From positions 1 through 62,760 of the IMG/VR virus record IMGVR_UViG_3300044707_000497: a stretch of 62,760 nucleotides of DNA, one strand, 5' to 3'. Made by a program: the position numbers and the translations under genes. This document shows positions 45,065 through 61,597 of this stretch, piece by piece. Each line of letters starts with the position of its first letter. Within the stretch, counting starts at the first letter, position 1. The notes below the pieces were generated by a model. The model was not told where the DNA came from, did not search any database, and saw only the letters and a list, made by a program, of their open reading frames with translations. Source of the DNA: a virus. Its lineage: Duplodnaviria; Caudoviricetes.

Positions 45065-45292
45065 TTAGACTTCTTCCCAGCCATCGAACTCCTCTGGAGC
45101 CTTCAGGATAATCTGTTCCTGAATGTCCTCTTCGACTCGGTCTTCGCGTCCGAGGTAGTTGACCTCTCGGTGAAGTTTGACCTTCGCGGCGAGGTCTTGA
45201 AGCGATGAACCCCTGAAGCGAAAACCCGTGGAGGGTTCTTCAAAGTTCCATCCTCCAGGGGGCCATTGATTCGGATTCTTGAGGCGTCTCAT
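45065..45292 (-). CDS. Hypothetical protein
   Basis: PPGGWNF motif; ATGA overlap with the giant gene. Confidence 0.65.
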   Translation of the reverse strand: MRRLKNPNQWPPGGWNFEEPSTGFRFRGSSLQDLAAKVKLHREVNYLGREDRVEEDIQEQIILKAPEEFDGWEEV

Positions 45293-48200
45293 AGCGGAGT
45301 GTCCTTGGCTCGTTTGACGGCGGCGTCGGCTGCTTTGATGCGATCCTTGGGAGCGATCTTCTTCGCGGCATCGCTCGGCTCGTATTTCTTGTAGCGCCCG
45401 CTACGAATCATCGCGATGTCCTCCTTGCCGATGCGATTGGCTTTAAGAATTTCCTCGGCCTTCTTCGGAGAGATTTTGCCCAGCCCGATAGCCGCCAGCA
45501 CATCGTCGCGGAAATCAGCGGTGAGGCGGTAGGTCGCGTCGTTGGCTCGTTCGTAGGCATCGGCAATCTGGTCGGGCGAGCGAGTGCCCTTGGAGTTAAA
45601 CTCGCGGGTGAAGAGGGATGAGGCATCGCGGATGTCGCGGCTGAACTTTGAAGCCTTGAATCCAAGAGCCGCTTCGACATCGACCTCGGTGATGCGTTGC
45701 CCTGCTGCCAAGCCGAGGAGTTCGTTGGCGAGATTGTAGGCGCGTCCGCTGTCGCTCACAGCCCCCGCTCCTGCCTTAATGATTCGGCCTGCGGTGTCAA
45801 ATGCCCCAGGGCTGAAAGCCTTCCAAATCCGCTCGGTGGTTTTCGCTGCAATGTTTGCTCCGGTGTCCTGCGGGTTGTAAATCGGGCGTCCGGTGGCGTC
45901 TTGGTTGCGGAGGACATCGACAATCGCTCCGCTGACCAACTGCTCGCTCTTGAATGGACGGATCAATTCGCTTGCCGCCTCCATTGCGCCTCGGGTAATG
46001 CGCTCCATTGCTTCCGCGTCGTCGCGGGCTGTGAGCGAACGCACAAAAGCGCCAGATGCTTTTTTCCAGTAGTCGTAAGGATCGAGGAAACTCACATCCA
46101 CATAGCTCACCTTGCCGTCCTTGTTTTTAGTCAAGAGAAGCTGCGAGTTCTTCTGCCAGTTAGGCAGGAAGCGGCGAAGGCGCTCTTCGTCGTCTCGTCC
46201 AATGCCCGCCAGCGCCATCATGCCAGTTGCCACTGCTCCAGGGCCGAATGCCGCAAACACCATCCCGCGAGCCCTTTTCCAGCCGATAGCCTGTAGCTCT
46301 TTATTGCCTGTTCGATTACCCTCGGTGATCTCGTAGCGGGCGAGCTTCATCAGGTTGATCGAGGTGCGAATGACTTCGGTAGTGAAAGTGATGAATGGAG
46401 CTACAAACGGGAACGCCTTGACCTTATCAAGTGCGGCGGGAGAGAGGCTGTAGGTCGGGCGGATGTCGCGAACGATCTTTGCCGCATGATCTTTGACCTG
46501 TTCGGGGCTCCAGCCTGGCATCGCTTTCGTGTATTTATCGACCTCGGCCATGTAGCCCATGACCTTCCAGAAGTCGTCACTTGAAGCGTAGGCTTTCTGT
46601 GCGGTATCCCATACTGCTCCGGCTGATTTTTGCAGCTTTCCAATCAAGTGATTTGAGAACTGCTCTTCAGTCTTGGAGAAGCGTTTTGCCTCCATGAGTT
46701 GACCAAGCATGTTTCCTACAATCGACTCGCCGATGACACCACGGCGAACGAGTTCCTGCATCTCGTTCATCATCGCCTTTCGGAAATCCGCTTCTTTTGG
46801 GTAGGCGTTAAAGGCGCTGCGGAAGCTCATGTTGAAGGCTGTGCCCATGCGGTCTTTGAGCTTCGGAATGTCGGAGAACCCGAAGTTTCCTGCTGCCACA
46901 TCAAAGAGAATGTTGCCGAGGTTGTTTCGGACTTGCGCGACGGGGGACAGCACGGTCTTCGCCGCCATCGACCAACCCGTGACCTTCGAGAGCGCCCGCA
47001 CCCAAGCGTAATTGTCGGAGACTCCGTTCTGTGGAAACATCTGGTAGAGCGCCTCGACGAGGAGCTTGTCGCCGTGAAGCCCTGCAAGGGGAGCCAGTGA
47101 TTTATTGTTGTCAGAGGAAATTTTCAGGTAGCCCCTAGGGCGGTCTGCTTCAGGGCCGTTGTAGAGCCAGCCTTCTTTTAGGCCCAACCCGCGAAGATCG
47201 GAGAGGAACTGGTGGTTGGCTACGAGAGAGGACATCTTCATCACGCTCTTGGCGTAGTTGATCGTAGGGTCTTCATAGCGGCCCCAGAGGGCTTGAATCT
47301 CGGGGGAGATGTTGCCGCGAGTGTCGAAAATCGAGAGGTCTTTTTGCCCAGGGATGCGCCCGCGCAAGATCACGCTGCCCATGCCGTCTTCGCCGATAGC
47401 GAGGAGGTCGTCTATGGCTTTGTCGATCTGCTCCTGCTTGGCTGTGCCCTTGGTCTGCGCCTGCGCGTCGGCCTTGGAAATAAACCCGCCTTCGCTCTCG
47501 GTCTGGCGGATGAGTTCGGCGGCGTTGCGTTGCTCGATGTTGCGCTTGATAAGACGCTCGGCGGCCTGCATGACCTTGGTGTTTTCCCGCACCTGCTTGG
47601 CCCACTTTTCATTGTCGAAGATTTCGTAGGAGCGGTGGAGGTAGATGCCGAGATTAGCTTCCACGGTCGCAGCCATGCTGGGATCAAGGATGCCCGAATC
47701 TTTGAGCATCGCTGAGTAGTAGGCGATATGTTCGTTCATCTCGCTGACCGCATCGGCTACATTGGCTGGGAGCGCGGCGAGCGCGGCCCGTTGCTTGACC
47801 TTGAATGCCTCGCGGTTCTTGGCGAGGTGGGCGGCTTCCAATGTGTTTGCCTCCTCCTCGTCGATCTCGCGCATCCGGCGCACTTCGGAACGCTGGGCTT
47901 GGGTGAGCGGGTTGTCGAGGTTGCCGAGTGCCGTATTCATTGTCTCGGTTGAGACTTCGACCCCTGACTTCTTGGCGGCTTTGACGGCGCTAACGAGGCG
48001 CGTCGAAAGAGTGTCGATCACGCGGGCGGCGGCTGTGATCTGCTGGCGCGATGCCCGCCACTTGTCGCCCGCCTGTTTGTCGAGCTTGCCATCGGGCGAA
48101 AGCGCCCCGCCTGCCGTGTAAGTCCCGCCGTTAAATGTCGTCTTCGACTCCGCTCCCGTGAGCTTGGCGATCATCTTCATCGCCTCGCCTGCGGGTGACA

Positions 48201-51200
48201 TCGGCGCTTTTGTCATAGCCCATGGCTCGACAAGGATAGCGTCTTCCGGCGCGATATTTTCGGTTGAATACGGCTCAACCGCTTTTCGTTGATCCTCTGT
48301 AAATTCTATTCTTGCCTCTACATCACGGGACTCAATTTCTCCTGCTATTTTTTTGTAAATTTCAAAATTGGCATTCTTGTTCATTACCCACCCAGCACCA
48401 TATTTTTTCTCAGCTTCAAAAACATGTTTGGCGATTGGGTTCTCTATGGTCTCCTTACTTACCCCATATTTTTTGTAGAGGCCGTCTAGTTGTTTTTTTA
48501 AACTATCTACGAGTGACTTTTGACGTGTAACTTCTGCGGCATCTACTTCACGCCCGAAAACGATAAACTTTTTCTTTTTAGGGGTCTCAGCGATAATTTT
48601 TTCTGCTTTTTCAAGCCATGAACTGAGCTGTGTTTTTTCAGCTAACAATTCTGCTATCCTGCGGGAGTTTTGTTTCATCTCCATAGGGACGACTGTTGAA
48701 GGACTGCCCCCCTGCGCAAAGCCCTCGCGGTCTTGTATCCAATGTTGAACTTCGTGCAATAAAGTCGCTAACGAGTCTTTGCTGATTTGGTCGTTTTGAT
48801 CTAATATGACTGAAGAAGATATAACATCTCCGACCCGCAGAGTGCCGTCCGCCAGCCGCTCAAGGGCGACCTTAAACTTTCTCCCCGACTGAATGTTGCC
48901 CCCGATTGGAAAAAATGGAATCTCTTTGGCTTCTGGATAAGCATCGTAGAGAGCCTTGTGGTTAAGGACATCTGCGAGTTTTAAATAACCCCCGCTGCCT
49001 ATTCTCTCCGTAACACTGTCAAGAGAAACACTGCCAAATACTTCTCCGCCAAAAGCTCGTTTAGCTTTTTTCCGGTAATCGTCCATAGAGACAAACCCCG
49101 CCTTGTCGTCAGGTATCTCCCACCGCATCTTGCCATCATACTTTCCAGGGAACCAACCCGTCACTGCGCGAATCTCCTCAGATGTTTTCCCGTCTGCCGC
49201 CATTGCCCTAGCGGCCTCCAAACTGTCGCGCTTAAATTGCGGCATATCCGCTTTCTCTCCTCCGTAAGTCGCACGAGGCGCGGGCACGCCGATCATTTGC
49301 TCCACGGCGCGTTGCACCCCAGCTTCGGTTTGCGGGGTTTGGATGAACGCGAGGACATTGTCGAGCCCTTGGGTGAGGAGGCTGTCGCCGCTTACATCGA
49401 AGCCGTAGATGATGTCTTTGAAGTAGGCGAAAATTTGATCGAGGAGATTGCGGATGTAGCCGCCCTTCTTCGGCAGACCTTGCATTGGCGCGGCTTGCTG
49501 AAGGAAGATTTGAAACTCTGGATTCGTGAGAATCTCGGTGATGAACTCATCCATGTTGGTGAGCCCGTAGAACAAGTCGCCTGGGGCACGGCGAGCTTTA
49601 GCCTGGCTGAGTGTTTGACCTGCTCTCGTGTATCGCCCTAGAGCGAGTCGCTCGGCATGCTTAAAGATTTTCTCCATATCGCGGAAAGCGGCTCGCTCGA
49701 CACGGTTGAGCGGATACCCCTTCTGCGTTTTCCAGAAAAAGACATGGTGCAAGGCTTCGTGAACAATCGTCTGAGCAATGCCGCCTTCGTGGGGGCTGTC
49801 CAAGTTGACGCTAATTCTTCCGCTCTTTGCTTGAGTGCCTGGCTCGTAGAGTCCAGCATATTTTTCAGTGGTCTCCGTGAAGCGCACCTTCGAGAAATCA
49901 AACCCGAGATCAAGGAGCATCTGTGCCACATGGCGAAGTGGCGCGGGAACAGTGTCGTCGCCCGCAATGTTCGAGAGCATCTTTGGCACATCCTGCATGT
50001 AACCCATCTCGATCTCATTCGGTGTCAGGATTCCTTCGTCAATGAGCTTGTCGTAATCTTCTTCAGTGATTCCGTTGTAGAAAAGAATGTCCGATACGTT
50101 AGCGGCACGAAGATCAGCTTGGTCTTGATCGGCTTGATCTTGGTTTTTAGCTCTGATGATTCGCGGCTTTGCTGCTGGGCTCTGAACTTTTTGAAACTCT
50201 ACCGCATTTCCGTTTTCGTCCGTGTCGAACGAATAAACGGGGTAGCGGTTAATCAACTCCGAAAGCTCTTCGCGGATAGCGTCATCTTCTGTAATCGAAG
50301 GTTTAACTTCTGTTTCAAAGTCTGTTCCTCGAAAATAGGCTCTTTCAGCTTGATCTCTTTTTTGTTCTGCGGCTTTTAATTCTTGTCCCAGTTCTTGAGA
50401 TACCCTTCCAGTGTCGGCTCCTTGTTCATTGACTCGCGACAAGACCGCTCGATAATTAGATTTAGCCTGGTCCCAGTCGCTTTCTAATTTTGTCACCCGC
50501 TCAAGTGACCTGTCTATATCTTCTTGGGTGACGCCAGGTTGTCCATACCCATCTCTATCGACTAAAATTTCTACGATACGAGGCTTTGACTCTTTTGAAA
50601 TGGTCCCTTCATTGCTGTTATACCCTTTAGACTTATACTCAACTGATTGAGGTTCTATAACTAGAGTAATGCCCCCCGCACCGATTGATTGATTTGGCTT
50701 AGTGCTGTCAATAGTGATGTTGGTTCCGTTACGAATCCCATTCAAAATTTTAGGGATGTCTTCGGCGTCTCTTACAGTATGAAGAACGTGGGGCGTCTTA
50801 AACGCTGCGGGGCTCTGTGGCGCGTCCTCCGATTCCATCTTGCTTTCTTGTTCCAATAACTTCTCAAACGCCGCTTTCTCTGCCGCTATCTCTTCTTCAG
50901 TCTTCGGAAGCTCGGTTGCTTCGCGCATCTCGCGGTTTGTCGGGCGGCCTGCTTTTGCACGCTTTGCTTTTTTAGCCGTGGGCTTGGTTACTTGGTTATT
51001 ACCTTCTGGCTTAACTTCTGCCTCGCCCTGGGGCGCGGGAATCGAACTTTTATCACTCTGGCTTTTCGCAGCCTTGGCTGCGGTCTTTGGCTCCGCTTTG
51101 GCTTCAGCCACTCCACGAACGGCTTTTAGAAGCTCACTCGGGGCAGCTTTATACTTGGTGCCACGGAAGGTGAAGTTCCATGAATCCATGAAGGCTTTTC

Positions 51201-54200
51201 CAAGCTCCGAGGAAGGATTGATGTTTACTCCAATGAGCTTGAGGATCGCGTTGAAGGCATCGCGGATCATGCCGTTGAAAGTGCGCTTGTCGGCGTTGAC
51301 CGCTCCGAAACCAAGCTGGGAAAGAAGTTTAACGAAGTCGGGGCTTCCCGTCATCTCAACAATAAACTCGTCGAGGTTCTGGAGTCCGTTGTATCGGCGG
51401 GAGCCTTCCTCGCCGCTTGCGATCATAGCCTTCAGAGCCTTCTCGTAATTAGCGAGGCGGGCTTCCGGCGTGGTCGCTCCGGCCTTGTCGGCTGCTGCCT
51501 TCATCGCGGGGCTGGCGTTGCCTGCCTTGAGAATGGCAGCACGGCGCATCCGTTCTAGGTCTTTGATGATGCGGTCTTCCTGCGCGGTGGTCTTTACCTT
51601 GCCGTGGACTTTTGCAAAAGTAGCGACGTGGGCGAGTTCATGTAGCACAGTCTGCAAAGGAGTCTCGCGGTCGTGGGCTTGATCGAGATTGATGTAAACG
51701 CCGAACGCACTGTAATCGGCATTCCGCCCTAGAAGACCGCCCCAGACTGCACGATCCTTGGTTCCAGTCTTGAGGAAGTTCGCGGCTTGGACTTCGATGT
51801 TGTCGAGCTTGAGCCCGCGCTTTTCCATTTCAAGAAAAGCCTTGGCGCGAACCTGCATGTCGCGTGGTGCTTTGTTCTTTGGATCGGCGAGGCGGGTCAG
51901 GAGTTCACGGGTGGATTCAAACGCTCCGAACCGGACGAGTTCGTTGAAGTTCAGGTCGCGGAGTTTGCCGTAGTCGCCTTCCTTTTCAGCGGCGAGGATT
52001 GCATCGGCGTAAGCCCCGACGAGTTCCTGGTCGCCCAATTCAACGAGGCGTTCGATGCCTGGAGCCACGGAAACCACGGCGTCCTGTGCGGCTGCGGCTT
52101 TGTTCTCGTCGGCTCGGGAGTTGTAAGCGAGGTAGGCGCGATCCACTTCGGCATTGCTCATGCCGACCATTTGCTCGTCGCTCAACCCAACCTTGGCCTG
52201 CAAGAAGCGGCGCTTGATGCGCTGGAGCTTGGGGCTGCTCGGCTTGCGCCCTGGGGCACCTTTGATTTCTTTGGCTGCTCCCTTGGCTTTGCCTGGGGAC
52301 TGTGGGCTCCTTCTCTGGTAGGCTGCGGAAATCAGTTCTGTCGTTTTTTGTTTTACTTTGTTTTCCGCTATTTTTTTAGCCGTTGGCTGATCTATCCCTC
52401 GCTCAATAATTTTTGCTTGAGCCTCTTCGATTCGCGGTTTTTCAAACGCGTCCAACATGCCTTGTTGCTTTTCAGCATCAGGCTCATTTAAATAATCGTC
52501 GGCGAACTTCTCGTCTGGGGTCAGTGCTACTTGCTCTACAGCCGCTTCTGCTTCTGCGACTGGAGTTGCGGTCGCCGCTTTGAAAGTTTTGGTCTCTTGG
52601 TCATAGACCGTTTTTGTTTTTTTAGGCTCCGCTGTTTTAGTTTCCGCTTTGGGGGCTTTTGCCGCCGCATTGTTTAGCGCAAAAAGCTGAACGACTTGCT
52701 GTGAGGCGTCATCATCGGAAAGCGCGGCAATCTCATCTTCCGAAAGCCCTTCTGACTTCAGGATGTTTTGACGGTCTTGAAAAGACAGCTTGGCGTTCTG
52801 TTCTTTGGCAGCGGCTATGTTTTCGGCTGAGATTGCAACGCGGCTTTTCGGTTCTGCTCTTCTCGGGATAGCGTCATCAGCCTTGACACCAGCAACTTCT
52901 TCTGCCAACTCAGCGGCTCGTCGTTCAACGGAAGCGAGAAGTTGCTTGAAGGTTCTTCTGTCTCGGAGGAAGAGGAGTTGTTCTTCGACTGTTCGTTTGA
53001 GTTCATATTGGGATGTTCTATCTGGGGCGTTGAGGTAATCAAGCGCAAGGAGTTCAAGTTTAGTAAGCGATTTTTTCCATTCTTCAAGTTTTTCGAGGAA
53101 CCCTGACTCAAGCGCAGTCTTTGCCAGCTTGTCGGCTTCGACCATTGTTTCCAGTTCTTCAACCGACAATTTGCCTGGGGCTGCTAGTTCTACCTTACTC
53201 GCTCCTTTTTTCCCTTGTTTTGAGTCTTGAATGAGTTGACTCGCGGTAAGATTGTCTCCTTGAGCATCTTCTCCATCCTCTTTTTTAGCGTCCATCGAGA
53301 CATCATCTGGCCGTAAACTAGCGAATTTTAAAGCCTCAGTTTTAACTTGTTCGAGCGCGGCGATATGTTTACTAGGCGACGCAAAAATACTAAGCTCGCC
53401 GCCTAATGCTGTTACCGTTCGGTTTACAAGTTTGGTTTCTTCAGTGTTCTGTGGCCGCCCTTCGAGAACCAATTTCGGTATTTCAGACGCATTCGTGCCT
53501 GAAACAAAAAGCTCGGCGGTTTTAGCAACCAATCCCGCTGCCCCTTTGACCTCGGCACCTTTCTTAGGCTCCAAAGATATTTTAGACAGCGCATTTTGAA
53601 TTTTATTAGCTGCGAGCTTTCGGTATTCTTCCTGCCCTTGGAGTCCCAACCCACTTAAACTATCGCTGGCAATTTGTGACTCTACGCTTTTGAACCACGG
53701 TTTTGAGATCACCGAAAACAGCATCTCGATTAGCGGAGAAGCCCCTTGAATTCTTTTAGCTGCTTTGGTTGTAGCGTCGGTGCCAGCTTTTTCTCGGCTC
53801 GCTCTGTTTTGGTTCGAGGCGTCAACCTTGATGTTCTTGATGGCTTGGTTCTTTTTGTAGGCGTTCTCAAACGAACCTTGAGGGTCTGTGGCGTTGAACG
53901 TCCCGACATTTATCCCATTTTCTTCATACTCGGCTGTGACCACTATAGAGTAGTCCTTACCCTCGACGGGTCGAACCGTCATCCAAGCTGGGGCAGGGGT
54001 ATTATTTGGAACCCGAACCTCGACTCCTTGGTTCATAACCCGAAGAACATTGAGTTTTTCTGCCTGCTGCGTTCTTTCCGCGTTCTGCGGCCTCACCTTT
54101 TTCGGCGCGTATGTGAAGAAAGAGCGGTTTACCGTCGTCCCATCTTTTTTCCTAAAGAGTTTTGTGGATACCGTGAAAGGTTTACCCAGTCCGTCTTTGC

Positions 54201-56727
54201 GTTTGTCTTCGAGAATCTCCCCGCCGTCCTCATCGGTTTCTCCAGTTGGCTTAAACCCAGCGGCACCTAAATCGTTTGTCTCCTCTAGGACTGCAATTTT
54301 AGCTTTTTCTTGGGTCGGCTCGGGGTCGGTAGCTGTGGCGGTAGTGACATTCTGCACGGTCGCGGGGGACATCTTCTGTTTTTTCCCCTTCTGCGCTACT
54401 ACGATCCCGCCGTCTTCAGTTTTTTCGACGAACTCGCCAGTCGTCACCCCGTTTGTGATAACCTGCCCCTGGGTCAAACTATCTACAATGGCTTGTTGCT
54501 GCTCCGGCGTGCGGCTTTCTAAAAGTTTCCGCTGCTCTTCCTTATCCGCTTCGATCTTAGCTTTATGTTCAGCTTGAAGTTGTTCGAGTTTTGTATCAAC
54601 CGCGTCAGGCTCTTCGTCTTCGTCGCTACCCTCCTCGTATTCATCTTCATCTACTACAGCGTTTTCTTCCTCGTTAAGCTCTGCAATTTCTGATTGCGTT
54701 TCGGTCACTTCGGGGGTAGCAGGAGCGGGAGTTGAACCCGCATCTTCAGGATATGAGCCTGATGACGTAGCCGTTTGTCCATCCTGCGGTGTGATTTCGT
54801 CAGAAACTTGTGTTTTTACAGATTCAACCTTGGTCTTAGCCTCCTCAAGCTGCTTGATTGAATCTTCAAGTGCTTTGTCCCCCTCTGCACCAAAAGTTGT
54901 TGTTTCGAGGAGGTCACGACGGGAAGCAATCTCTTTGTCAATCTCCTCGATGGGTGTGCTGTCCGTAAGTATGGGCGCGGGGGGAGGAGGAATTTGAGAT
55001 TGTTTTTTAGCGGCAGCCGTTGCTTTAGCCGCCTCGACGATGTTCTCGTCATCAACCCCGTCGTTCCGCAAATCTTCAATCAGTTCGTCCACCGCATCAG
55101 CCGGAATGCCTGCTTCGACGACCTTCTTCTTGGTCTCGTTCTGCTTTTTAGCCTGAATCACTGATTCATTGCCGCTAAGATCAAGAATTTCAAGGTCGCT
55201 ATCATCAGTCTTTCCCTGCTCTCGGTCATCAATGCCGTCTCCGTCTTCATCAACGATCTCACCTCGGGCTTTGGCAGCAGCAGTTTCCGCACGGTCAAAT
55301 AAGCTCGCACCTTCTTGGGTGTTTGGGAAAACAAACAGCTTGCCGTCTTGGACGATGCCGCCGCGAGCGTTAGCGAGCTTGTCAAAAATCTCTTGCTTCG
55401 CGTTCTCTACGACCCAGCCAGTATCGCCAGTTTCCGCGACGTTCCACCGACGCATGACAAGGCCGCCATCGAGGGTCACGGAATCTTTGTCGTAAACAAT
55501 GTCGCCAGAGGGCGCTGCCGCTCCCGCATCTGGAACTTCAGGGTCTTCAAGTGGCTTTTGAACGAGCCCCTTGAGCGCGTTGGCTGTGACTGGGGCAAGG
55601 CGCTCCACCACGCCCCCCGCACCGCCGATGGCGCTGCCGACAAGCGAGCCCGCCGCCATTGCGTTGAGGCGCTCGCGTTTTGCTTCCTCGGAGTTGATGT
55701 CGAAATTCGGGTCGTTTTCAGCACGGGCCATCTGCTCAAGGTAAGTCTGCGGCAACTCTTCGGCAGGGCCTTCAAGCGCGAGACCTTTTGCAACGCCCTT
55801 GCCGACTTCTTTAAGCAGGGAGCCTTCGGCGGTGTTCTTGGCAACATTAACCCCGAAAGCACGGCGGATGAAAGGCGATCCGATGAGCGTATCCGTGAAG
55901 CCTTCGATAGCTCCAGCAGGGATACCGTATTTCAGCGCCAGCCCTGCATCTTCAGTGTCCCCGTAAATTGATCCAGTCTCCATGCCGACACCCGTCGCCA
56001 GGTTTCCAGCAGCAGCCCCGGCTATCGGAGCGATACGAGCTGTTGCTACTTGCCCTAGAGCGCCCTCGGCGGCTTCCCTGGTTAGCCCGCCTTCCATCAG
56101 ACGCTTGGCGGCATATTTCATTCCGCCGCGAGATGCGACTGCGTTAGCTACGGTAACGGCAGCAGCTTTTTCAGTAAGACCGTTAGCAACGGCTTTTTGA
56201 ACTGCGCTTTGAACGACGCCTTTTGCAAATTGTTTTCCCGCAAGACCGCCTGCTCCACCGAGAGCAATAGTAGGGATAAGTTGGGGAGCCTGCTCAAGAA
56301 GCGTTCCGTAGGCCCACTTCGCCGCGTCTCCAACGCCTTCAATGTCTGTGAAGTCCACCATCCCCGCTTCCTCGCGGGCTATGGCTGCCTCCCTCATGTT
56401 ATCGTTGAAGCCTTCGAGCCCCAACTTCTTGACGCTCTCAACCCCCGCCAAGTCTCCAGCGAGTCCAACCACGCCCATGCCAAGCCCTTGAAGTTGATCG
56501 ACGCCCGCGCCGAACATCTTGCCAGTGAACTCTCCGAGGGTTACTGGCGGCTTGCGGTAAACATCGAGGTTCTTTATGACGTTACCTTCGCTATCACGGC
56601 TTACGATTTCAAATTGATCCTCCCAGCCTCCCTCCGGCGGTTTTTCTTCTTTTGGCGATTCTGGCTCTGGTTTATCCCACCCCAACTCTTCCCGTGTAAC
56701 CGGAACCCAGTTTTTATCAGATAGCAT
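45289..56727 (-). CDS. Giant polyvalent internal virion (ejection) protein, 3812 aa
   Basis: Gly/Ala-rich N-terminal region; two paralogous zincin-like domains (HELAH 51628-51642, HEALH 49747-49761); LPD23-like domain (GWF...DGKMRWEIPD, LLHEVQHWIQDREGFAQGGSP); LPD38-like C-terminus. Confidence 0.85.
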   Translation of the reverse strand: MLSDKNWVPVTREELGWDKPEPESPKEEKPPEGGWEDQFEIVSRDSEGNVIKNLDVYRKPPVTLGEFTGKMFGAGVDQLQGLGMGVVGLAGDLAGVESVKKLGLEGFNDNMREAAIAREEAGMVDFTDIEGVGDAAKWAYGTLLEQAPQLIPTIALGGAGGLAGKQFAKGVVQSAVQKAVANGLTEKAAAVTVANAVASRGGMKYAAKRLMEGGLTREAAEGALGQVATARIAPIAGAAAGNLATGVGMETGSIYGDTEDAGLALKYGIPAGAIEGFTDTLIGSPFIRRAFGVNVAKNTAEGSLLKEVGKGVAKGLALEGPAEELPQTYLEQMARAENDPNFDINSEEAKRERLNAMAAGSLVGSAIGGAGGVVERLAPVTANALKGLVQKPLEDPEVPDAGAAAPSGDIVYDKDSVTLDGGLVMRRWNVAETGDTGWVVENAKQEIFDKLANARGGIVQDGKLFVFPNTQEGASLFDRAETAAAKARGEIVDEDGDGIDDREQGKTDDSDLEILDLSGNESVIQAKKQNETKKKVVEAGIPADAVDELIEDLRNDGVDDENIVEAAKATAAAKKQSQIPPPPAPILTDSTPIEEIDKEIASRRDLLETTTFGAEGDKALEDSIKQLEEAKTKVESVKTQVSDEITPQDGQTATSSGSYPEDAGSTPAPATPEVTETQSEIAELNEEENAVVDEDEYEEGSDEDEEPDAVDTKLEQLQAEHKAKIEADKEEQRKLLESRTPEQQQAIVDSLTQGQVITNGVTTGEFVEKTEDGGIVVAQKGKKQKMSPATVQNVTTATATDPEPTQEKAKIAVLEETNDLGAAGFKPTGETDEDGGEILEDKRKDGLGKPFTVSTKLFRKKDGTTVNRSFFTYAPKKVRPQNAERTQQAEKLNVLRVMNQGVEVRVPNNTPAPAWMTVRPVEGKDYSIVVTAEYEENGINVGTFNATDPQGSFENAYKKNQAIKNIKVDASNQNRASREKAGTDATTKAAKRIQGASPLIEMLFSVISKPWFKSVESQIASDSLSGLGLQGQEEYRKLAANKIQNALSKISLEPKKGAEVKGAAGLVAKTAELFVSGTNASEIPKLVLEGRPQNTEETKLVNRTVTALGGELSIFASPSKHIAALEQVKTEALKFASLRPDDVSMDAKKEDGEDAQGDNLTASQLIQDSKQGKKGASKVELAAPGKLSVEELETMVEADKLAKTALESGFLEKLEEWKKSLTKLELLALDYLNAPDRTSQYELKRTVEEQLLFLRDRRTFKQLLASVERRAAELAEEVAGVKADDAIPRRAEPKSRVAISAENIAAAKEQNAKLSFQDRQNILKSEGLSEDEIAALSDDDASQQVVQLFALNNAAAKAPKAETKTAEPKKTKTVYDQETKTFKAATATPVAEAEAAVEQVALTPDEKFADDYLNEPDAEKQQGMLDAFEKPRIEEAQAKIIERGIDQPTAKKIAENKVKQKTTELISAAYQRRSPQSPGKAKGAAKEIKGAPGRKPSSPKLQRIKRRFLQAKVGLSDEQMVGMSNAEVDRAYLAYNSRADENKAAAAQDAVVSVAPGIERLVELGDQELVGAYADAILAAEKEGDYGKLRDLNFNELVRFGAFESTRELLTRLADPKNKAPRDMQVRAKAFLEMEKRGLKLDNIEVQAANFLKTGTKDRAVWGGLLGRNADYSAFGVYINLDQAHDRETPLQTVLHELAHVATFAKVHGKVKTTAQEDRIIKDLERMRRAAILKAGNASPAMKAAADKAGATTPEARLANYEKALKAMIASGEEGSRRYNGLQNLDEFIVEMTGSPDFVKLLSQLGFGAVNADKRTFNGMIRDAFNAILKLIGVNINPSSELGKAFMDSWNFTFRGTKYKAAPSELLKAVRGVAEAKAEPKTAAKAAKSQSDKSSIPAPQGEAEVKPEGNNQVTKPTAKKAKRAKAGRPTNREMREATELPKTEEEIAAEKAAFEKLLEQESKMESEDAPQSPAAFKTPHVLHTVRDAEDIPKILNGIRNGTNITIDSTKPNQSIGAGGITLVIEPQSVEYKSKGYNSNEGTISKESKPRIVEILVDRDGYGQPGVTQEDIDRSLERVTKLESDWDQAKSNYRAVLSRVNEQGADTGRVSQELGQELKAAEQKRDQAERAYFRGTDFETEVKPSITEDDAIREELSELINRYPVYSFDTDENGNAVEFQKVQSPAAKPRIIRAKNQDQADQDQADLRAANVSDILFYNGITEEDYDKLIDEGILTPNEIEMGYMQDVPKMLSNIAGDDTVPAPLRHVAQMLLDLGFDFSKVRFTETTEKYAGLYEPGTQAKSGRISVNLDSPHEGGIAQTIVHEALHHVFFWKTQKGYPLNRVERAAFRDMEKIFKHAERLALGRYTRAGQTLSQAKARRAPGDLFYGLTNMDEFITEILTNPEFQIFLQQAAPMQGLPKKGGYIRNLLDQIFAYFKDIIYGFDVSGDSLLTQGLDNVLAFIQTPQTEAGVQRAVEQMIGVPAPRATYGGEKADMPQFKRDSLEAARAMAADGKTSEEIRAVTGWFPGKYDGKMRWEIPDDKAGFVSMDDYRKKAKRAFGGEVFGSVSLDSVTERIGSGGYLKLADVLNHKALYDAYPEAKEIPFFPIGGNIQSGRKFKVALERLADGTLRVGDVISSSVILDQNDQISKDSLATLLHEVQHWIQDREGFAQGGSPSTVVPMEMKQNSRRIAELLAEKTQLSSWLEKAEKIIAETPKKKKFIVFGREVDAAEVTRQKSLVDSLKKQLDGLYKKYGVSKETIENPIAKHVFEAEKKYGAGWVMNKNANFEIYKKIAGEIESRDVEARIEFTEDQRKAVEPYSTENIAPEDAILVEPWAMTKAPMSPAGEAMKMIAKLTGAESKTTFNGGTYTAGGALSPDGKLDKQAGDKWRASRQQITAAARVIDTLSTRLVSAVKAAKKSGVEVSTETMNTALGNLDNPLTQAQRSEVRRMREIDEEEANTLEAAHLAKNREAFKVKQRAALAALPANVADAVSEMNEHIAYYSAMLKDSGILDPSMAATVEANLGIYLHRSYEIFDNEKWAKQVRENTKVMQAAERLIKRNIEQRNAAELIRQTESEGGFISKADAQAQTKGTAKQEQIDKAIDDLLAIGEDGMGSVILRGRIPGQKDLSIFDTRGNISPEIQALWGRYEDPTINYAKSVMKMSSLVANHQFLSDLRGLGLKEGWLYNGPEADRPRGYLKISSDNNKSLAPLAGLHGDKLLVEALYQMFPQNGVSDNYAWVRALSKVTGWSMAAKTVLSPVAQVRNNLGNILFDVAAGNFGFSDIPKLKDRMGTAFNMSFRSAFNAYPKEADFRKAMMNEMQELVRRGVIGESIVGNMLGQLMEAKRFSKTEEQFSNHLIGKLQKSAGAVWDTAQKAYASSDDFWKVMGYMAEVDKYTKAMPGWSPEQVKDHAAKIVRDIRPTYSLSPAALDKVKAFPFVAPFITFTTEVIRTSINLMKLARYEITEGNRTGNKELQAIGWKRARGMVFAAFGPGAVATGMMALAGIGRDDEERLRRFLPNWQKNSQLLLTKNKDGKVSYVDVSFLDPYDYWKKASGAFVRSLTARDDAEAMERITRGAMEAASELIRPFKSEQLVSGAIVDVLRNQDATGRPIYNPQDTGANIAAKTTERIWKAFSPGAFDTAGRIIKAGAGAVSDSGRAYNLANELLGLAAGQRITEVDVEAALGFKASKFSRDIRDASSLFTREFNSKGTRSPDQIADAYERANDATYRLTADFRDDVLAAIGLGKISPKKAEEILKANRIGKEDIAMIRSGRYKKYEPSDAAKKIAPKDRIKAADAAVKRAKDTPL
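54717..54788 (-). tRNA. tRNA-Met(CAU), initiator-like, embedded in frame on the sense strand of the giant gene
   Basis: C-GCAGGA TG GAC-AAACGGCTAC-GTC A TCAGG-CTCATAT-CCTGA AGAT GCGGG-TTCAACT-CCCGC TCCTGC-T A; all four stems pair. Confidence 0.8.
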
Positions 56728-56729
56728 AG

Positions 56730-58610
56730 TTATTTATTAAGAAAACCAACATTTCCCATGCCCCTAATGTTTTGAGAGCGGGGTCTCAGGATGTCCCCCC
56801 AAGGGTTCGACTCATCGTTCGGCGCTATTTTGGCGGCAGGAGTGGATTGCTTGGAAGGGAGACCTCTCATAACAAGCCCAACATTTTCCATACCTTTAAC
56901 GCTTTGGGTGCGGGGGCTCGTAATGCCCTCCCAGTTTTGAAGGAGTGGGTTTGTTTCATCCGCCGCTTCGACTGGGGCAGGTTGAGGCGCAGCAGATTGC
57001 TTGGCAGCGGGCTTCCCTAGCCCCAAAAGTTCTTTCCCTAATCTATGCCCTAGGGGGATTTGTTTACGAAGCTCTTTTATTTGTTTAAGCCGTTCTTTGT
57101 TGAGGCTGGCGTCACCCCTAAAATTAGGATACCCCGTGTCTCGGACTTCTTGCTCCAGCTTGCGAATCTGAGCATAAACCGGAGCTAGATTCTCGTTTAA
57201 TTCTTCTTTAGTCGCAGCGTATTCTTCTCGTTGAGCTTTATCGGGGCTTACCGCATACCCACCTGTCCACATCTTGTCTAATTTTTCTTTGGCAGAAGAC
57301 GCAGTGGTTAAGTTAGCTTTAATTTCTTCTGAGACTGAAACTTTTGAGGTGTCAGTTTTTTGGGCAGCCTTCGACTCGGCAGGCTTTTCAGGTTCTTGCG
57401 TTTTCTGGACTAAGCTATGAGTGATCCACTGGGGGCCTTGTTTACCATTAGCAACATAGGAGGTGACAACATTAGGGTCTTCCGTAGCGTAAACAACTGT
57501 CGGCTTGCCCCCGATAGCCATCTTGAACGGTAGATTTTTTGTTTCTTTGTTCCGTAACCAAGCATCCCGCTCTGCGCTGTCTTTGAATGAGGGGGCATTC
57601 TTAATCGCTATGGCCTGAATCCTGTTCATATTTTCAGCAATCCGCGTGTCAAACTGATCTGCTGTCACTCCATCATAGGTATCCAGCCCCATATTTTTAG
57701 CTTCTTCAAGCTCTTGGTTTTGTCTAAAGTAGCGATTTAGCTGAGCCCCAAGTTTGCTCGCCCCTTGCGGAAGTTGCATCGCCGCGTCTCTTTCCGCTCC
57801 TAATTTCTGCAACGCCATTTCATCTTCGTCAGTTCGATTTTCTTTCTTGGAAATGGCGTCGATCAAACTTTGTGCTTTTGTAGCCCTTTCAATCGAGTCA
57901 TCTTCCTTGGTCTTAGCGGCTTTAACCGACGACGCCCAAACTAGCTTATCCGCTTCAAAGGCTTGGTCCCAGTCCATGTCTTTTGGCAGGGTAATTTCCT
58001 GACCGTCAACTTTTATGGTGGCTCCCTCTCGTCGGATTCGGTCAACGCGGTCGATTTCTTCCGCCGTGCGATACCCGCCTCCAGGGCGCGTTCCGAGCCT
58101 TTCCACGAGGTTGCGATCCAAGTTCCGTTCTTCAAATAGATCACCCATTCGGGAATAAACCATTCCAATAAACTGTTCATCAAGGGCTTTTTCTCTTGCT
58201 ACTTCCCTTGCGTTAGCGCCGGTTCTTCCGTTTTTTAACCCTTTCACTTGGCTTATGATCCCATACCCTTCAGAAATAATTTCCCCTAGGGTGAGTTCTT
58301 TTGGGGGTTCTTGCTGTTCTTGCGGCGCAGGGGTTTTTTTCGGAGGTTCAAAGCTGTCGAATACATTCCCAGTCTCCTCGGCCTTTAATTGCCGTGAAGT
58401 AGAGTTTAATTCCGACCGTGTTCTAGGGTCTTCGAGCGGGGCTATTTTTGAGTCCGGCACAAACGAGCCTTCAGCGGACGTATTTAATTTTCCGGCGTCT
58501 GTCTTTAACATCTCATCTCTGCGAAGTTGAGAGGTTTGAGCGGGTAGATTGTCAAAAACCGATCCCCTTTCGAGGTCGGTATTAAATTGGTCAGCGAGAT
58601 TCCAAGCCAT
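56730..58610 (-). CDS. Probable internal virion/ejection protein
   Basis: 626 aa, charged and helical; immediately upstream of the giant gene. Confidence 0.6.
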   Translation of the reverse strand: MAWNLADQFNTDLERGSVFDNLPAQTSQLRRDEMLKTDAGKLNTSAEGSFVPDSKIAPLEDPRTRSELNSTSRQLKAEETGNVFDSFEPPKKTPAPQEQQEPPKELTLGEIISEGYGIISQVKGLKNGRTGANAREVAREKALDEQFIGMVYSRMGDLFEERNLDRNLVERLGTRPGGGYRTAEEIDRVDRIRREGATIKVDGQEITLPKDMDWDQAFEADKLVWASSVKAAKTKEDDSIERATKAQSLIDAISKKENRTDEDEMALQKLGAERDAAMQLPQGASKLGAQLNRYFRQNQELEEAKNMGLDTYDGVTADQFDTRIAENMNRIQAIAIKNAPSFKDSAERDAWLRNKETKNLPFKMAIGGKPTVVYATEDPNVVTSYVANGKQGPQWITHSLVQKTQEPEKPAESKAAQKTDTSKVSVSEEIKANLTTASSAKEKLDKMWTGGYAVSPDKAQREEYAATKEELNENLAPVYAQIRKLEQEVRDTGYPNFRGDASLNKERLKQIKELRKQIPLGHRLGKELLGLGKPAAKQSAAPQPAPVEAADETNPLLQNWEGITSPRTQSVKGMENVGLVMRGLPSKQSTPAAKIAPNDESNPWGDILRPRSQNIRGMGNVGFLNK

Positions 58611-60477: not shown

Positions 60478-61572
60478 CTAGGCTACTCCTTTCAGATAAA
60501 CTTGTGTCCAAGAAAGCAACCTCCCTTGGAGGAAAAGAAACCCCGCGCAATTTGCAGGGATGCCGAGCGCGATTGCAGCGGCAGCGGTATAGATAGAAGG
60601 GTTTGGCATAATGTTTTTGCCTGCGGCGTGGAGGAACTGGGTGATCTCTTGGATTTTTGTGTGAAGGTCCGAGCGGTGTTTCGCGAGCCAGCCGTCCACT
60701 TTTACCCAGAGCGGGTCGGGCTCACCTCTATGAAATGAATTTCCCCAGCCTGGGATTCTCAAACCGTCTTCAAACATGAGCTTGACGCCTTGCAGCGAGT
60801 GGCTTGACGCAAGTATCTCGTAGGATTGTTCCAGTGGCGCGTGCGTTCCCCCTAGGGTTAGCAGACCAGAGGCGATACTGTTTGTCCACGAGCCGTTGCC
60901 CGCCGAGCAAGCTGCGACAGCGTTGGAAGAAATGTTCCCACGGAAGGCGCTTTCAGCGTGCGCTTCTAAAACCAACTGCAACAACTCTTCCTCCCGCTCG
61001 CTCAGAGGGGAAACGCGCCCTGGGATAGCCGCCCCACCGCGTAGTGCCCCGTGGATGAACTGAGGCTCCATCTGCACGTTGAGGCTGCGGAGAACTTCAA
61101 ATTGTTCTTTTGGAAACTCAACGCCGCCAAGGCAATGATGCCAGATTTTTTCAACCACCTCGGACTTGTCCAAGTTTTTGAAGTTCACTACAAGCGCGAG
61201 CCCTTTAAGCTCCTCCAAGGCTTCAAGTGTGCGATCTACAAATTCATCAAGCGGAAGCTCTTCCACGGTCTTGCCGGACACTTTTGCAAACGACTCTAAA
61301 ACAGAATCTTGGTCGCGCTCCACAATGACCACACGGAGGCTCGGCATCAACTCAAGCAACTCTTTTGCTTTCAACGCCGCGCCGCAATCCGAATTGCCTA
61401 CATACTTTGCCCCAGCGGACATAACCTCGGCCATGCCTTTCGCGTCCAACCCTCTATTGCTAAGTTCATGGTGGCAAAGTGAATCTCCCCTCGTAAAGAG
61501 GTTTGCCAACCAAGCCGTGCGGGAGCGGGGTAGCCCCAGGATTAGAAAATTTCGCTCGGATTGGATTAGCAT
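60478..61572 (-). CDS. Sulfotransferase-like P-loop domain fused to a degenerate citrate-synthase/citryl-CoA-lyase-fold domain
   Basis: FLILGLPRSRTAWLANLF N-terminus; HAE..GNISS, LGGTHAP, RIPGWGN, PDP, IMPN, LFLQGR..W in the C-terminus; ATG at 61572. Confidence 0.75.
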   Translation of the reverse strand: MLIQSERNFLILGLPRSRTAWLANLFTRGDSLCHHELSNRGLDAKGMAEVMSAGAKYVGNSDCGAALKAKELLELMPSLRVVIVERDQDSVLESFAKVSGKTVEELPLDEFVDRTLEALEELKGLALVVNFKNLDKSEVVEKIWHHCLGGVEFPKEQFEVLRSLNVQMEPQFIHGALRGGAAIPGRVSPLSEREEELLQLVLEAHAESAFRGNISSNAVAACSAGNGSWTNSIASGLLTLGGTHAPLEQSYEILASSHSLQGVKLMFEDGLRIPGWGNSFHRGEPDPLWVKVDGWLAKHRSDLHTKIQEITQFLHAAGKNIMPNPSIYTAAAAIALGIPANCAGFLFLQGRLLSWTQVYLKGVA

Positions 61573-61597
61573 AACCGTGTATTTATTACACCATACC

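What the first reader, a model, noticed from the sequence alone, without database searches (positions are those of the whole stretch)
54717..54788. Intact initiator-tRNA cloverleaf read in frame inside the 3812-aa virion gene
All stems pair; anticodon CAU; C1:U72 mismatch, A11-U24 and A73 are initiator hallmarks; it has two of the three anticodon-stem G-C pairs and is followed by CCC rather than CCA. It is translated as PQDGQTATSSGSYPEDAGSTPAPAT within a disordered linker. RNase P/Z processing would cut the late mRNA, so this could be a dual-use element (tRNA supply or anticodon-nuclease decoy versus protein dosage control) or a recently captured tRNA.
Basis: partly seen in the sequence, partly recalled or inferred. 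Interest (0 to 1): 0.8.

Follow-up and report, generated by a model that had tools for sequence, protein, structure and literature searches.

The report
Working-looking tRNA inside giant phage gene
An intact initiator-type methionine tRNA gene sits in frame inside the disordered linker of a giant virion-protein gene of a freshwater phage, and the same small cassette turns up, still foldable, in unrelated giant phage genes, which suggests one stretch of DNA serves both as protein linker and as tRNA.

Summary
ARAGORN and Rfam (55.1 bits, E 3.9e-9) call one tRNA-Met(CAU) at 54717-54788 on the minus strand. It lies on the same strand and in frame within the 3812-aa ORF 45289-56727. Its features are those of an initiator tRNA: a C1/U72 mismatch, G2:C71, C3:G70, A11:U24, A73 and an au/GC/GC anticodon stem, the natural alphaproteobacterial variant.

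New here: an 83-nt block (tRNA, 7-nt leader, CCCC) is 98.8% identical in an unrelated metagenome contig (L004). There it is again read in the same frame inside a different giant ORF. Ten proteins in four contexts (three giant-protein families and one 117-aa ORF) carry the full-length tRNA-encoded peptide.

Every difference I saw falls in a loop, the leader or the non-Watson-Crick 13:22 pair, or is compensated. Pair 27:43 occurs as U-A, G-C (DNA) and A-U (inferred); 28:42 switches from C-G to A-U. Alleles are shared across families. Two close relatives carry in-frame truncated copies and ten more distant ones carry none.

Best reading: a selected, exchangeable tRNA gene nested in a linker. Processing from the late mRNA is inferred, not shown. 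No phage precedent turned up; the closest known case is tRNA-Sec nested in selB.

The parts
54717..54788 (-). tRNA-Met(CAU), initiator type, 72 nt without CCA (4-nt variable loop, 8-nt D loop); followed by CCCCC
   Evidence: ARAGORN; Rfam RF00005 55.1 bits, E 3.9e-9; pair check 19 of 21 standard
54712..54795 (-). 84-nt (28-codon) cassette ATCACAC + tRNA + CCCC(C), read as ITPQDGQTATSSGSYPEDAGSTPAPATP. The identity block shared with the unrelated contig L004 is 54713-54795
   Evidence: blastn/tblastx of L004 against the window: this is the only shared stretch, 82 of 83 nt identical; alignment A3 shows sharp borders
45289..56727 (-). Giant virion (polyvalent-type) protein gene, 3812 aa, read straight through the tRNA
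   Evidence: ORF list and translation; Pfam LPD23 at 52.3 bits against a cut-off of 27; phrog_22602 'virion structural protein' E 4.6e-45; homologues collinear on both sides of the tRNA
54598..54816 (-). Predicted disordered linker (aa 638-710) that holds the tRNA-encoded peptide
   Evidence: AlphaFold2 pLDDT below 50 and no secondary structure for fragment residues 239-311; indel-rich in relatives, with indels that keep the frame
45289..54708 (-). The source record's own gene call (P0005, 3139 aa). It starts at a GTG 9 nt after the tRNA, so the annotation cut the gene at the tRNA
   Evidence: P0005 is 100% identical, is listed as the window's own protein, and starts VTETQSE

Best explanation
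This is a real initiator-type tRNA-Met gene nested in frame, on the sense strand, inside the disordered linker of a giant polyvalent virion-protein gene of a lytic-looking freshwater phage.

It is a discrete cassette of about 84 nt: a 7-nt leader, the 72-nt tRNA and CCCC. The same cassette occurs in at least three otherwise unrelated or only distantly related families of giant phage proteins, and in one small ORF, always in the frame that gives a hydrophilic, stop-free, linker-like peptide.

Shown here: the ORF is kept open through it, the cloverleaf pairing is kept by compensatory changes, and tRNA alleles are shared between gene families, so the cassette is exchanged between phages.

Inferred: the late transcript serves two uses. 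When a ribosome reads it, the cassette becomes 28 residues of linker. When the cloverleaf folds, RNase P and a 3' end-maker followed by the CCA-adding enzyme release an initiator tRNA, which destroys that mRNA copy. Few copies of a giant virion protein are needed, so this cost would be low.

The released tRNA would add to, or replace, the host's initiator pool late in infection. Whether that means plain supply or a substitute for a tRNA attacked by host nucleases is open. The element is dispensable in some lineages, where it is being deleted in frame.
For: The tRNA is called by two methods.

It has initiator features. The 1:72 mismatch with 2:71 and 3:70 is the Fmt determinant, and au/GC/GC is natural in alphaproteobacteria (PMC5389676, passages). 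A bacterial tRNA with the same hallmarks and an identical anticodon arm exists in L007.

The gene is one ORF. Homologues P0002-P0004 and the tRNA-less P0006 are collinear on both sides. The truncations in P0003 (11 codons) and P0004 (7 codons) are in frame. The replacements in Logan contigs change length by multiples of 3 (68 for 20, 56 for 197, 167 for 215, 90 for 96). The listed small indels are triplets or paired +1/-1, except one unpaired +1 at 54831 in X5 (14 further indel rows were not shown).

There is a second, unrelated context. L004 has ARAGORN tRNA-Met 536-609(-), 71 of 72 nt identical, in the same frame inside a 1248-aa open-ended ORF. BLASTP, tblastx and blastn find nothing shared with the window apart from the 83-nt block.

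A peptide search of 1.84 billion representatives gave 7 hits, 3 of them true carriers. A word search gave 5 carriers of 25 candidates. In total 10 proteins carry the full-length peptide and 2 carry truncated copies. They fall into families A, B and C, which share only 25-35% identity in scattered domains, plus a 117-aa ORF.

Covariation seen directly in DNA: contigs from runs X2 and X6, two different studies, have U27-A43 changed to G-C and C28-G42 changed to A-U.

Covariation inferred from unique minimal codon changes: P0023, P0024 and P0028 have A27-U43. All other replacements in the 9 full-length carriers other than the window fall in the leader, D loop, variable loop or the non-standard 13:22 pair. 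None breaks a standard pair.

Alleles cross family lines. The window allele (family A) is nearest to L004, P0026 and P0027 (family B). P0024 (B) has the same peptide as P0023 (C). P0025 (B) is nearest to P0002 (A).
Against: There is no RNA evidence at all. No RNA run was listed, so processing, aminoacylation and formylation are unshown.

Only two full DNA copies were in hand, the window and L004. The A27-U43 state and the other allele calls are inferred from proteins. The read laying difference table was truncated (200 rows not shown), so further changes in the X2, X5 and X6 tRNAs cannot be excluded.

The element is truncated in P0003 and P0004 and absent from 10 more distant family-A relatives, so it is not essential.

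The D stem has a non-standard 13:22 pair in every allele, the variable loop is only 4 nt, and no CCA is encoded.

Cleaving a 11.4-kb late mRNA mid-ORF has an obvious cost, and translating ribosomes may keep the cloverleaf unfolded.

Only one reading frame was searched at the protein level, so 'always the same frame' is partly a search bias.

Compensatory states could have arisen in a free-standing donor tRNA before capture. In that case they would show that intact alleles are captured, not that selection acts in place.
Confidence: 0.6

Rival explanations
1. It is a cis-acting tRNA-like processing or regulatory site rather than a decoding tRNA. The cloverleaf is kept because RNase P cleavage, or ribosome stalling on the structure, sets the dose of the giant protein or separates the transcript into halves. 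The released RNA itself has no role in translation.
For: Structure is conserved by compensatory changes. The position is always inside giant virion-protein genes, at a module boundary. No CCA is encoded and there is a non-standard 13:22 pair. Mukai proposed such a trade-off for selB/selC (PMC8124441, abstract and discussion read).
Against: The CAU anticodon loop and the initiator identity elements (1:72 mismatch, 2:71, 3:70, A11:U24, A73) are unchanged in all alleles seen. A mere RNase P substrate would not need them. A 5' fragment without a stop codon and a 3' fragment without a start codon are not useful products. The element is dispensable in close relatives, with no visible replacement.
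Confidence: 0.14
2. It acts at the DNA level, either as a portable patch of homology that serves as a recombination joint for shuffling modules between polyvalent-protein genes, or as an attachment site copied from a host tRNA gene. Its tRNA-likeness is then inherited from, and refreshed by, recombination with real tRNA genes.
For: Alleles are shared across families, and the borders of identity are sharp. The cassette sits at a mosaic junction: family C resembles A upstream (26-27% over about 210-270 aa, residues about 59-338 of A against about 139-392 of C) and resembles B just downstream of the tRNA (31-35% over about 150-180 aa). Halves of tRNA-Met are common att remnants in bacterial genomes (L006, L008, L011 and L012). 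A free-standing homologue with 10 mismatches in 74 nt exists in a lake run (X3 record 6).
Against: No tyrosine or serine recombinase was found in the 62.8-kb record, which is estimated 89% complete. The gene content looks lytic, with DNA polymerase A, a helicase and a primase-like protein. The whole tRNA including the 5' half and leader is kept, whereas att sites normally need only the 3' part (this last point is from recall). No close match was found in 185,579 species genomes with a tolerant pattern; the 10 hits were all clearly different tRNAs.
Confidence: 0.12
3. It is a neutral relic. A tRNA gene was captured by illegitimate recombination, happened to be stop-free in one frame, and now drifts as linker sequence.
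For: It is truncated in P0003 and P0004 and absent in 10 more distant family-A relatives. It lies in a disordered, indel-rich linker where almost any hydrophilic peptide would be tolerated. Within family A the peptide is no better conserved than its flanks: 2 of 25 residues differ from P0002, against 91% identity over 501 aa.
Against: There are two double compensatory changes in DNA, a third state of pair 27:43 inferred, and no uncompensated change in a standard pair in 9 carriers. The cassette is 82 of 83 nt identical in a gene with no other similarity. It is present in three gene families.
Confidence: 0.1
4. The conserved thing is the peptide, for example a protease site or a modification signal in polyvalent proteins, and the tRNA likeness is secondary.
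For: The peptide GSYP...AGSTPAPAT is identical in all ten full-length carriers. Polyvalent proteins are thought to be cut by their own zincin-like peptidases (PMC5512222, passages). HExxH motifs can be read in P0001.
Against: A 55-bit Rfam match and an ARAGORN call do not arise from a peptide constraint. The coupled replacements S/E, T/V and E/S at codons 9 and 14 make sense only as base pairs 27:43 and 28:42.
Confidence: 0.02

Closest known systems
tRNA-Sec (selC) nested inside the selB ORF of Alphaproteobacteria (Mukai 2021, PMC8124441; abstract and discussion read)
   Same: An entire tRNA lies on the sense strand inside a protein ORF and is translated as extra residues. Remnant copies occur in relatives. 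The proposed mechanism is a trade-off between tRNA folding/processing and full-length protein.
   Different: That case sits in the C-terminal extension of a functionally linked gene in bacterial chromosomes and stays at one locus. Here the tRNA is mid-ORF, about 17% of the way into an 11.4-kb phage virion gene, with no obvious functional link. It is an initiator tRNA, and the same cassette recurs in unrelated genes with shared alleles. Mukai calls his case the first nested tRNA in a bacterial ORF. My seven literature searches found no phage case.
tRNA genes overlapping or nested in protein genes of animal mitochondria (as cited in PMC8124441, discussion: tRNA-Lys inside cox1 of Armadillidium vulgare)
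   Same: A tRNA is fully inside a coding region in direct orientation, and one transcript serves two uses.
   Different: The mitochondrial cases are driven by extreme genome compaction and involve reduced tRNAs. Here a full-size cloverleaf sits in a 63-kb phage record and behaves as an exchangeable cassette.
Ordinary free-standing phage tRNA genes, including the idea that they replace host tRNAs hit by anticodon nucleases (van den Berg et al. 2023, PMC10264068; passages read)
   Same: It is a phage-borne tRNA with a likely role in keeping translation going late in infection. VapC-type toxins are known to cut initiator tRNA.
   Different: Normal phage tRNAs are intergenic, as in Nodularia phages, where the nearest GenBank match is an annotated intergenic tRNA-Met. 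That paper notes that phages generally avoid encoding tRNA-fMet where the anticodon itself is the nuclease target. No defence link was tested here.
Bacterial initiator tRNA, au/GC/GC variant (Shetty et al. 2017, PMC5389676; passages read)
   Same: It has the 1:72 mismatch, G2:C71, C3:G70, and an A-U first pair followed by two G-C pairs in the anticodon stem. The anticodon arm is identical to a genomic tRNA of Salinibacter (L007).
   Different: It has C1/U72 rather than C1/A72, U38, a 4-nt variable loop, a non-standard 13:22 pair, and no encoded CCA. Charging and formylation are untested.
Polyvalent proteins of phages and conjugative elements (Iyer et al. 2017, PMC5512222; abstract and passages read)
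   Same: The host gene is a multi-thousand-residue mosaic protein. It has an LPD23 domain and HExxH motifs, lies among virion genes, and is built from shuffled modules joined by linkers.
   Different: The passages that the term search returned from that paper (tRNA, virion, linker, LPD23) do not describe an RNA gene inside such a protein gene.

Membership tests
tRNA (Rfam RF00005) | Covariance-model score at or above the curated gathering score over the full model | tested here: met
   55.1 bits against 29, model positions 1-71 of 71, E 3.9e-9. ARAGORN agrees. The L004 copy is also called by ARAGORN.
Bacterial initiator tRNA (tRNA-fMet) | CAU anticodon | tested here: met
   Unchanged in all carrier peptides: codons S-Y over the loop are invariant.
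Bacterial initiator tRNA (tRNA-fMet) | Mismatch at 1:72 together with G2:C71 and C3:G70 (the Fmt determinants; PMC5389676, passages) | tested here: met
   C1/U72 mismatch, G2-C71, C3-G70. It is C/U rather than the C/A of E. coli. The same C/U is seen in the Salinibacter tRNA L007.
Bacterial initiator tRNA (tRNA-fMet) | Three consecutive G-C pairs at 29:41, 30:40 and 31:39 | tested here: inconclusive
   A-U, G-C, G-C. This is not the canonical state but is the natural 'first AU' variant of all alphaproteobacteria and some mycoplasmas (PMC5389676, passages).
Bacterial initiator tRNA (tRNA-fMet) | A11:U24 pair (this hallmark is recalled, not taken from any call) and A73 discriminator | tested here: met
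   A11-U24 and A73 are present.
Bacterial initiator tRNA (tRNA-fMet) | Charged with Met, formylated, and used in the ribosomal P site | not testable with these tools
   No RNA or biochemical data. No RNA run was listed.
[quoted passage not shown] | The entire tRNA is on the sense strand within an ORF that is really translated through it | tested here: met
   The ORF is continuous. Homologues are collinear on both sides, and indels in relatives keep the frame. Translation itself is not shown by proteomics.
[quoted passage not shown] | The tRNA is kept functional, shown by structure-preserving evolution | tested here: met
   Two double compensatory changes in DNA. A27-U43 is inferred in three proteins. 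There are no uncompensated changes in standard pairs in 9 carriers. Only 2 full DNA copies were available.
[quoted passage not shown] | The tRNA is released from the mRNA by processing | not testable with these tools
   No RNA data.
Polyvalent protein (host gene) | A very large multidomain protein with LPD or zincin-like modules, encoded among virion genes | tested here: met
   3812 aa; LPD23 at 52.3 bits; phrog_22602 virion structural protein E 4.6e-45; three HExxH motifs read; neighbours on the same strand lie in the structural arm. The neighbours themselves had no family hits.
Phage attachment site (attP) in a tRNA gene | An integrase gene in the phage, and identity to a host tRNA | tested here: not met
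   PF00589 and PF00239 are absent from the record, and the controls were positive. No close tRNA was found in the scan of 185,579 species genomes. The record is estimated 89% complete, so absence is not absolute.

The most novel reading that the evidence does not exclude
The cassette is a self-contained, exchangeable 'gene within a gene' that behaves like a tRNA intron of a messenger RNA.

RNase P and RNase Z would cut out exactly the 72-nt tRNA, which is 24 codons. Those cuts leave a 3'-OH on the upstream half and a 5'-phosphate on the downstream half (textbook end chemistry, recalled). These are the ends that an ATP-dependent RNA ligase joins. The phage has a small ligase-like ORF at 34189-34806 (weak hit).

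One late transcript could therefore yield both an initiator tRNA and, after rejoining, an in-frame message for a virion protein that is 24 residues shorter.

A milder form of the same reading has no rejoining: the cassette spreads between giant virion genes of unrelated lake phages because it carries a selectable tRNA at almost no cost to the protein.
Probability: 0.07. Interest if true: 0.95.

Novelty: new variant of a known kind. Interest (0 to 1): 0.8.

Why it matters
Phage tRNA genes are treated as intergenic extras, and annotation pipelines mask them before calling genes. Here that practice cut an 11.4-kb gene in two: the source's own call starts just after the tRNA.

A tRNA that is translated as a linker and also kept foldable by compensatory changes is a clean natural case of dual coding, with protein and structured RNA in one stretch on one strand.

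Its recurrence at near identity in unrelated giant virion genes means that a tRNA can travel as an in-frame cassette. That is a new route for tRNA spread among phages and a possible joint for shuffling modules of polyvalent proteins.

If the tRNA is processed, it builds in competition between translating a message and cutting it. That competition could be tested directly with one construct.

An initiator tRNA carried by a phage also bears on the open question of why phages carry tRNAs at all: supply, or escape from tRNA-cutting defences.

Tried and rejected
GenBank phages: blastn of 54300-55200 and tblastn of the first 1200 aa found no match. The 83-nt cassette found only weak matches of 77-89% over part of its length. 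The best named ones are intergenic tRNA-Met genes of Nodularia phages. The 'hypothetical protein' lying over one of them is a 35-aa call, not a nested case.

IMG/VR viral contigs: a protein scan, three DNA patterns and a family-B alignment found no relatives. The two loci (L002, L003) hold only a T-arm fragment and are unrelated. The tools warn that records near the window may be left out.

Protein-based scans of JGI metagenome contigs and species genomes found none. The DNA pattern in metagenome contigs gave the single locus L004. The tolerant pattern in species genomes gave 10 loci, all clearly different tRNAs or att-like halves.

The word search among shorter proteins found nothing, although P0021 (117 aa) exists, so that blank means little. 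Four of the 7 hits in the representative search (P0018, P0019, P0020, P0022) are repeat proteins with chance likeness and were dropped.

Target-site duplication: local alignment of 30-nt flanks was no better than shuffles, with 388 of 2000 shuffles (window) and 314 of 2000 (L004) reaching the observed score. Rejected.

There is no second copy of the tRNA in the window. The minus strand of 53800-57200 has no sigma-70-like promoter and no terminator-like site. The three terminator-like sites are on the plus strand and fewer than in shuffles.

No RNA holder was listed by the look-up of sequencing runs. Parts of the stretch were without contig cover in X2, X3 and X6 (54816-54968); these are replaced segments or holes and are not used as evidence.

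Only the translated frame was searched at the protein level.

Supplements of the papers were not opened; those of PMC10264068 list phage tRNAs and might hold nested cases that I could not see.

Full report
WHAT IS THERE. The window is a linear IMG/VR virus record of 62,760 bases, estimated 89% complete. ARAGORN finds a single tRNA in it: tRNA-Met, anticodon CAT, at 54715-54788 on the minus strand. Rfam's tRNA model matches 54717-54788(-) at 55.1 bits (gathering score 29, E 3.9e-9) over the whole model, and it is the only Rfam hit in the window.

The tRNA lies on the coding strand of ORF 45289-56727(-), 3812 aa, and is read in frame as PQDGQTATSSGSYPEDAGSTPAPAT (aa 647-671). A pair-by-pair check shows that 19 of 21 cloverleaf pairs are standard. 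The exceptions are C1/U72 and A13/C22. The discriminator A is followed by CCCCC.

WHICH tRNA. The 1:72 mismatch with G2:C71 and C3:G70 is the determinant for the formylase. The three G-C pairs of the anticodon stem are the other initiator hallmark, and a first pair of A-U is the natural state in all alphaproteobacteria and some mycoplasmas (PMC5389676, passages read). The window tRNA has A-U, G-C, G-C. A tolerant pattern scan of 185,579 species genomes returned 10 loci. One of them, a Salinibacter tRNA (L007), shows the same C1/U72, A73, A11:U24 and an identical 17-nt anticodon arm. I read the element as an initiator-type tRNA. A11:U24 as a hallmark is from recall. Charging and formylation cannot be tested here.

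THE HOST GENE IS ONE GENE. The product has an LPD23 domain (52.3 bits), a C-terminal match to phrog_22602 'virion structural protein' (E 4.6e-45) and three HExxH motifs (read). That makes it a polyvalent-type virion protein in the sense of Iyer et al. 2017 (PMC5512222).

The rest of the record encodes DNA polymerase A, a helicase with DUF2800, a primase-like DUF5906 protein and an M15 peptidase. It has no tyrosine or serine recombinase.

Fifteen homologues were found with the first 1300 residues. One of them, P0005, is the source record's own gene call. It has 3139 aa and starts at a GTG nine bases after the tRNA, so the pipeline cut the gene at the tRNA. The relatives P0002, P0003, P0004 and P0006 are collinear on both sides of the site.

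An AlphaFold2 model of aa 400-900 puts the tRNA peptide in a 73-residue stretch (aa 638-710) with pLDDT below 50 and no secondary structure, between helical blocks. The model is weak overall, with mean pLDDT 53.

RELATIVES WITHIN THE FAMILY. P0002 (82% identical over the N-terminal 1300 residues) carries the full peptide with two replacements. P0003 lacks 11 codons of it and P0004 lacks 7 codons, both in frame. P0006-P0016, ten more distant relatives, have none. So within this family the element is young and is being lost in some lines.

Lake and freshwater metagenome runs from 14 studies hold parts of the gene. I laid contigs of four runs from four studies on 54000-55500, and contigs of X2, X5 and X6 bridge the tRNA. 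The length changes they show are multiples of three (68 letters for 20, 56 for 197, 167 for 215, 90 for 96). The listed small indels are triplets or close +1/-1 pairs, with one unpaired +1 at 54831 in X5; 14 indel rows were not shown. The frame is thus kept on both sides of the tRNA and through it.

COVARIATION. With position p = 54788 - coordinate + 1, all four runs have C22 changed to A, which leaves the non-standard 13:22 pair non-standard. The contigs of X2 and X6 (different studies) have four further changes: 54762 A>C with 54746 T>G, and 54761 G>T with 54747 C>A. These turn U27-A43 into G-C and C28-G42 into A-U. At the protein level they swap a Ser codon and a Glu codon. The table was truncated (200 rows not shown), so this list may be incomplete.

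A SECOND, UNRELATED HOME. A DNA pattern spanning the anticodon arm to the T arm, with wildcards at the variable places, found one JGI metagenome contig, L004. ARAGORN calls tRNA-Met there, and 71 of 72 nt are identical. It is again read in the same frame, inside an ORF of 1248 aa that runs off the contig.

BLASTP of that product against the window protein finds only the tRNA peptide. blastn and tblastx of the whole contig against the whole window find only one 83-nt block, 54713-54795, at 98.8% identity. The DNA alignment shows sharp borders: ATCACAC, the tRNA, then CCCC. The natural unit is 84 nt, or 28 codons, read as ITPQDG...PAPATP.

Of the six frames of this unit, three are open. These are the one in use (hydrophilic), a second sense frame (basic and hydrophobic) and one antisense frame.

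HOW WIDE. Searching the 32-aa peptide against 1.84 billion representative proteins gave 7 hits. Three are true carriers (P0021, 117 aa; P0023, 4573 aa; P0024, 4353 aa) and four are chance likenesses to repeat proteins. A word search with residues 639-680 gave P0002 and P0025-P0028. The same search among shorter proteins gave nothing.

All-against-all BLASTP sorts the carriers into families:
- Family A: window, P0002-4; tRNA near aa 647.
- Family B: L004/P0017, P0024-27; tRNA near aa 1041-1095.
- Family C: P0023, P0028; tRNA near aa 553-578.
- The small ORF P0021.

Families A, B and C share only 25-35% identity in scattered domains. C resembles A in an N-terminal domain and resembles B just downstream of the tRNA, so the cassette sits at a mosaic junction.

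For the nine full-length carriers other than the window, each amino-acid replacement has a unique minimal nucleotide change. These fall at the base before the tRNA, in the D loop (p15, p16, p19), in the variable loop (p46) and at the non-standard pair (p13 or p22). In P0023, P0024 and P0028 the coupled changes p27 U>A and p43 A>U occur. No standard pair is broken in any carrier.

Pair 27:43 is therefore seen as U-A, as G-C (in DNA) and as A-U (inferred). Alleles cross family lines. The window's allele is nearest to that of L004, P0026 and P0027 (B). P0024 (B) has the same peptide as P0023 (C). P0025 (B) is nearest to P0002 (A). By contrast X2 and X6, whose flanks are 92-94% identical to the window, differ from it at five tRNA positions. 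The tRNA's history does not follow the genes' history, so the cassette is exchanged.

HOW IT MOST LIKELY WORKS. Three things are shown: a bona fide cloverleaf inside one continuous, conserved ORF; selection, or at least repeated capture of intact alleles, that keeps both the frame and the pairing; and exchange between unrelated genes.

The rest is inferred. The late transcript has two fates. It can be translated through the cassette, which then becomes 28 linker residues. Or it can fold and be cut by RNase P at the 5' end, with 3' trimming and CCA addition, to give an initiator tRNA at the cost of that mRNA copy. A giant virion protein needed in few copies can bear this cost.

What the tRNA is for is open. 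It may provide extra initiation capacity or replace an initiator pool attacked by toxins such as VapC. The general idea is in PMC10264068, which also notes that phages mostly avoid encoding tRNA-fMet where the anticodon is the target. I put 0.6 on this package.

RIVALS.
- A cis-acting RNase P or structure element without a decoding role (0.14). It does not explain the untouched anticodon and identity elements.
- A DNA-level recombination joint or att-like site (0.12). Shared alleles and the mosaic junction favour it. The lack of an integrase, the retention of the 5' half and the lack of a near-identical host tRNA argue against it.
- A neutral relic (0.10). The truncated copies and the absence in more distant relatives favour it. 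The covariation and the 82 of 83 nt identity in an unrelated gene argue against it.
- A peptide-level function (0.02).

WHAT IS KNOWN. The closest precedent is Mukai's prediction of tRNA-Sec nested in the C-terminal extension of selB. He describes it as the first nested tRNA in a bacterial ORF, with remnants in relatives and a proposed trade-off between tRNA and protein (PMC8124441, abstract and discussion read). That paper also cites mitochondrial cases.

Seven full-text searches with varied wording found no phage case. The library does not cover most subscription journals, and supplements were closed, so this is not proof of absence.

The present case differs in several ways. It lies in mid-gene, in a phage, involves an initiator tRNA, and recurs as a near-identical cassette in unrelated giant genes. 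I rate it a new variant of a known kind, with interest 0.8.

LIMITS. Only two full DNA copies were available, and the other alleles rest on protein inference. The difference table from the runs was truncated. There are no RNA data. Only one frame was searched at the protein level. Two tools that would have helped were closed: the look-up of encoding contigs and the search of earlier findings.

Noticed in passing
window 45289-54708 (-): The source record's own gene call (P0005, 3139 aa) begins at a GTG 9 nt after the tRNA. The annotation pipeline apparently masked the tRNA and cut an 11.4-kb gene in two. Nested tRNAs of this kind may therefore be hidden systematically in such annotations.
   Followed up: partly
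window 54704-54768, run X3 record 5: A 1216-nt Logan contig matches only tRNA positions 21-72 plus 13 nt downstream, with 3 mismatches. Its upstream flank encodes LIKRNIEQR, a motif from aa 3059-3067 of the same giant protein (window about 47526-47553). It is either a chimeric contig or a further rearranged context with a 5'-truncated tRNA.
   Followed up: partly
window 54717-54790, run X3 record 6: A 128-nt contig from a lake run carries a free-standing homologue of the tRNA with 10 mismatches in 74 nt and flanks unlike the window. It could belong to the donor or host lineage.
   Followed up: no
P0004 residues about 665-683: The truncated copy in P0004 lacks tRNA positions 3-23. It still shows G>S and P>L replacements whose minimal changes would turn T-stem pair 51:61 from G-C into A-U. 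This is my own codon reasoning, not a computed result. The change may predate the deletion, or the remaining T arm may still matter.
   Followed up: no
window 34189-34806 (+): A small 205-aa ORF has a weak match to the ATP-dependent ligase adenylation domain (PF01068, E 2.1e-5, below the cut-off). It is of interest only in the light of the speculative cut-and-rejoin reading.
   Followed up: no
L006, L008, L011, L012: Four of the ten genome hits are 3' halves of tRNA-Met with no 5' half that ARAGORN can call. They are in alphaproteobacterial and Opitutaceae MAGs and look like att-site remnants of integrated elements.
   Followed up: no
window 60478-61635 (-): An ORF in the structural arm has odd weak matches to the citrate synthase C-terminal domain (30.2 bits) and to sulfotransferase domains, and to phrog_10855 'hydrolase'.
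   Followed up: no
window 12688-13275 (-) and 4103-6115 (-): One protein has collagen triple-helix repeats (68.9 bits) and another has weak leucine-rich-repeat matches just under the cut-off (26.3 bits against 27). Both lie in the structural arm and are likely fibre or host-recognition parts.
   Followed up: no
families A, B, C: The cassette sits at a mosaic junction. Family C resembles family A upstream (26-27% over about 210-270 aa) and resembles family B directly downstream of the tRNA (31-35% over about 150-180 aa).
   Followed up: partly
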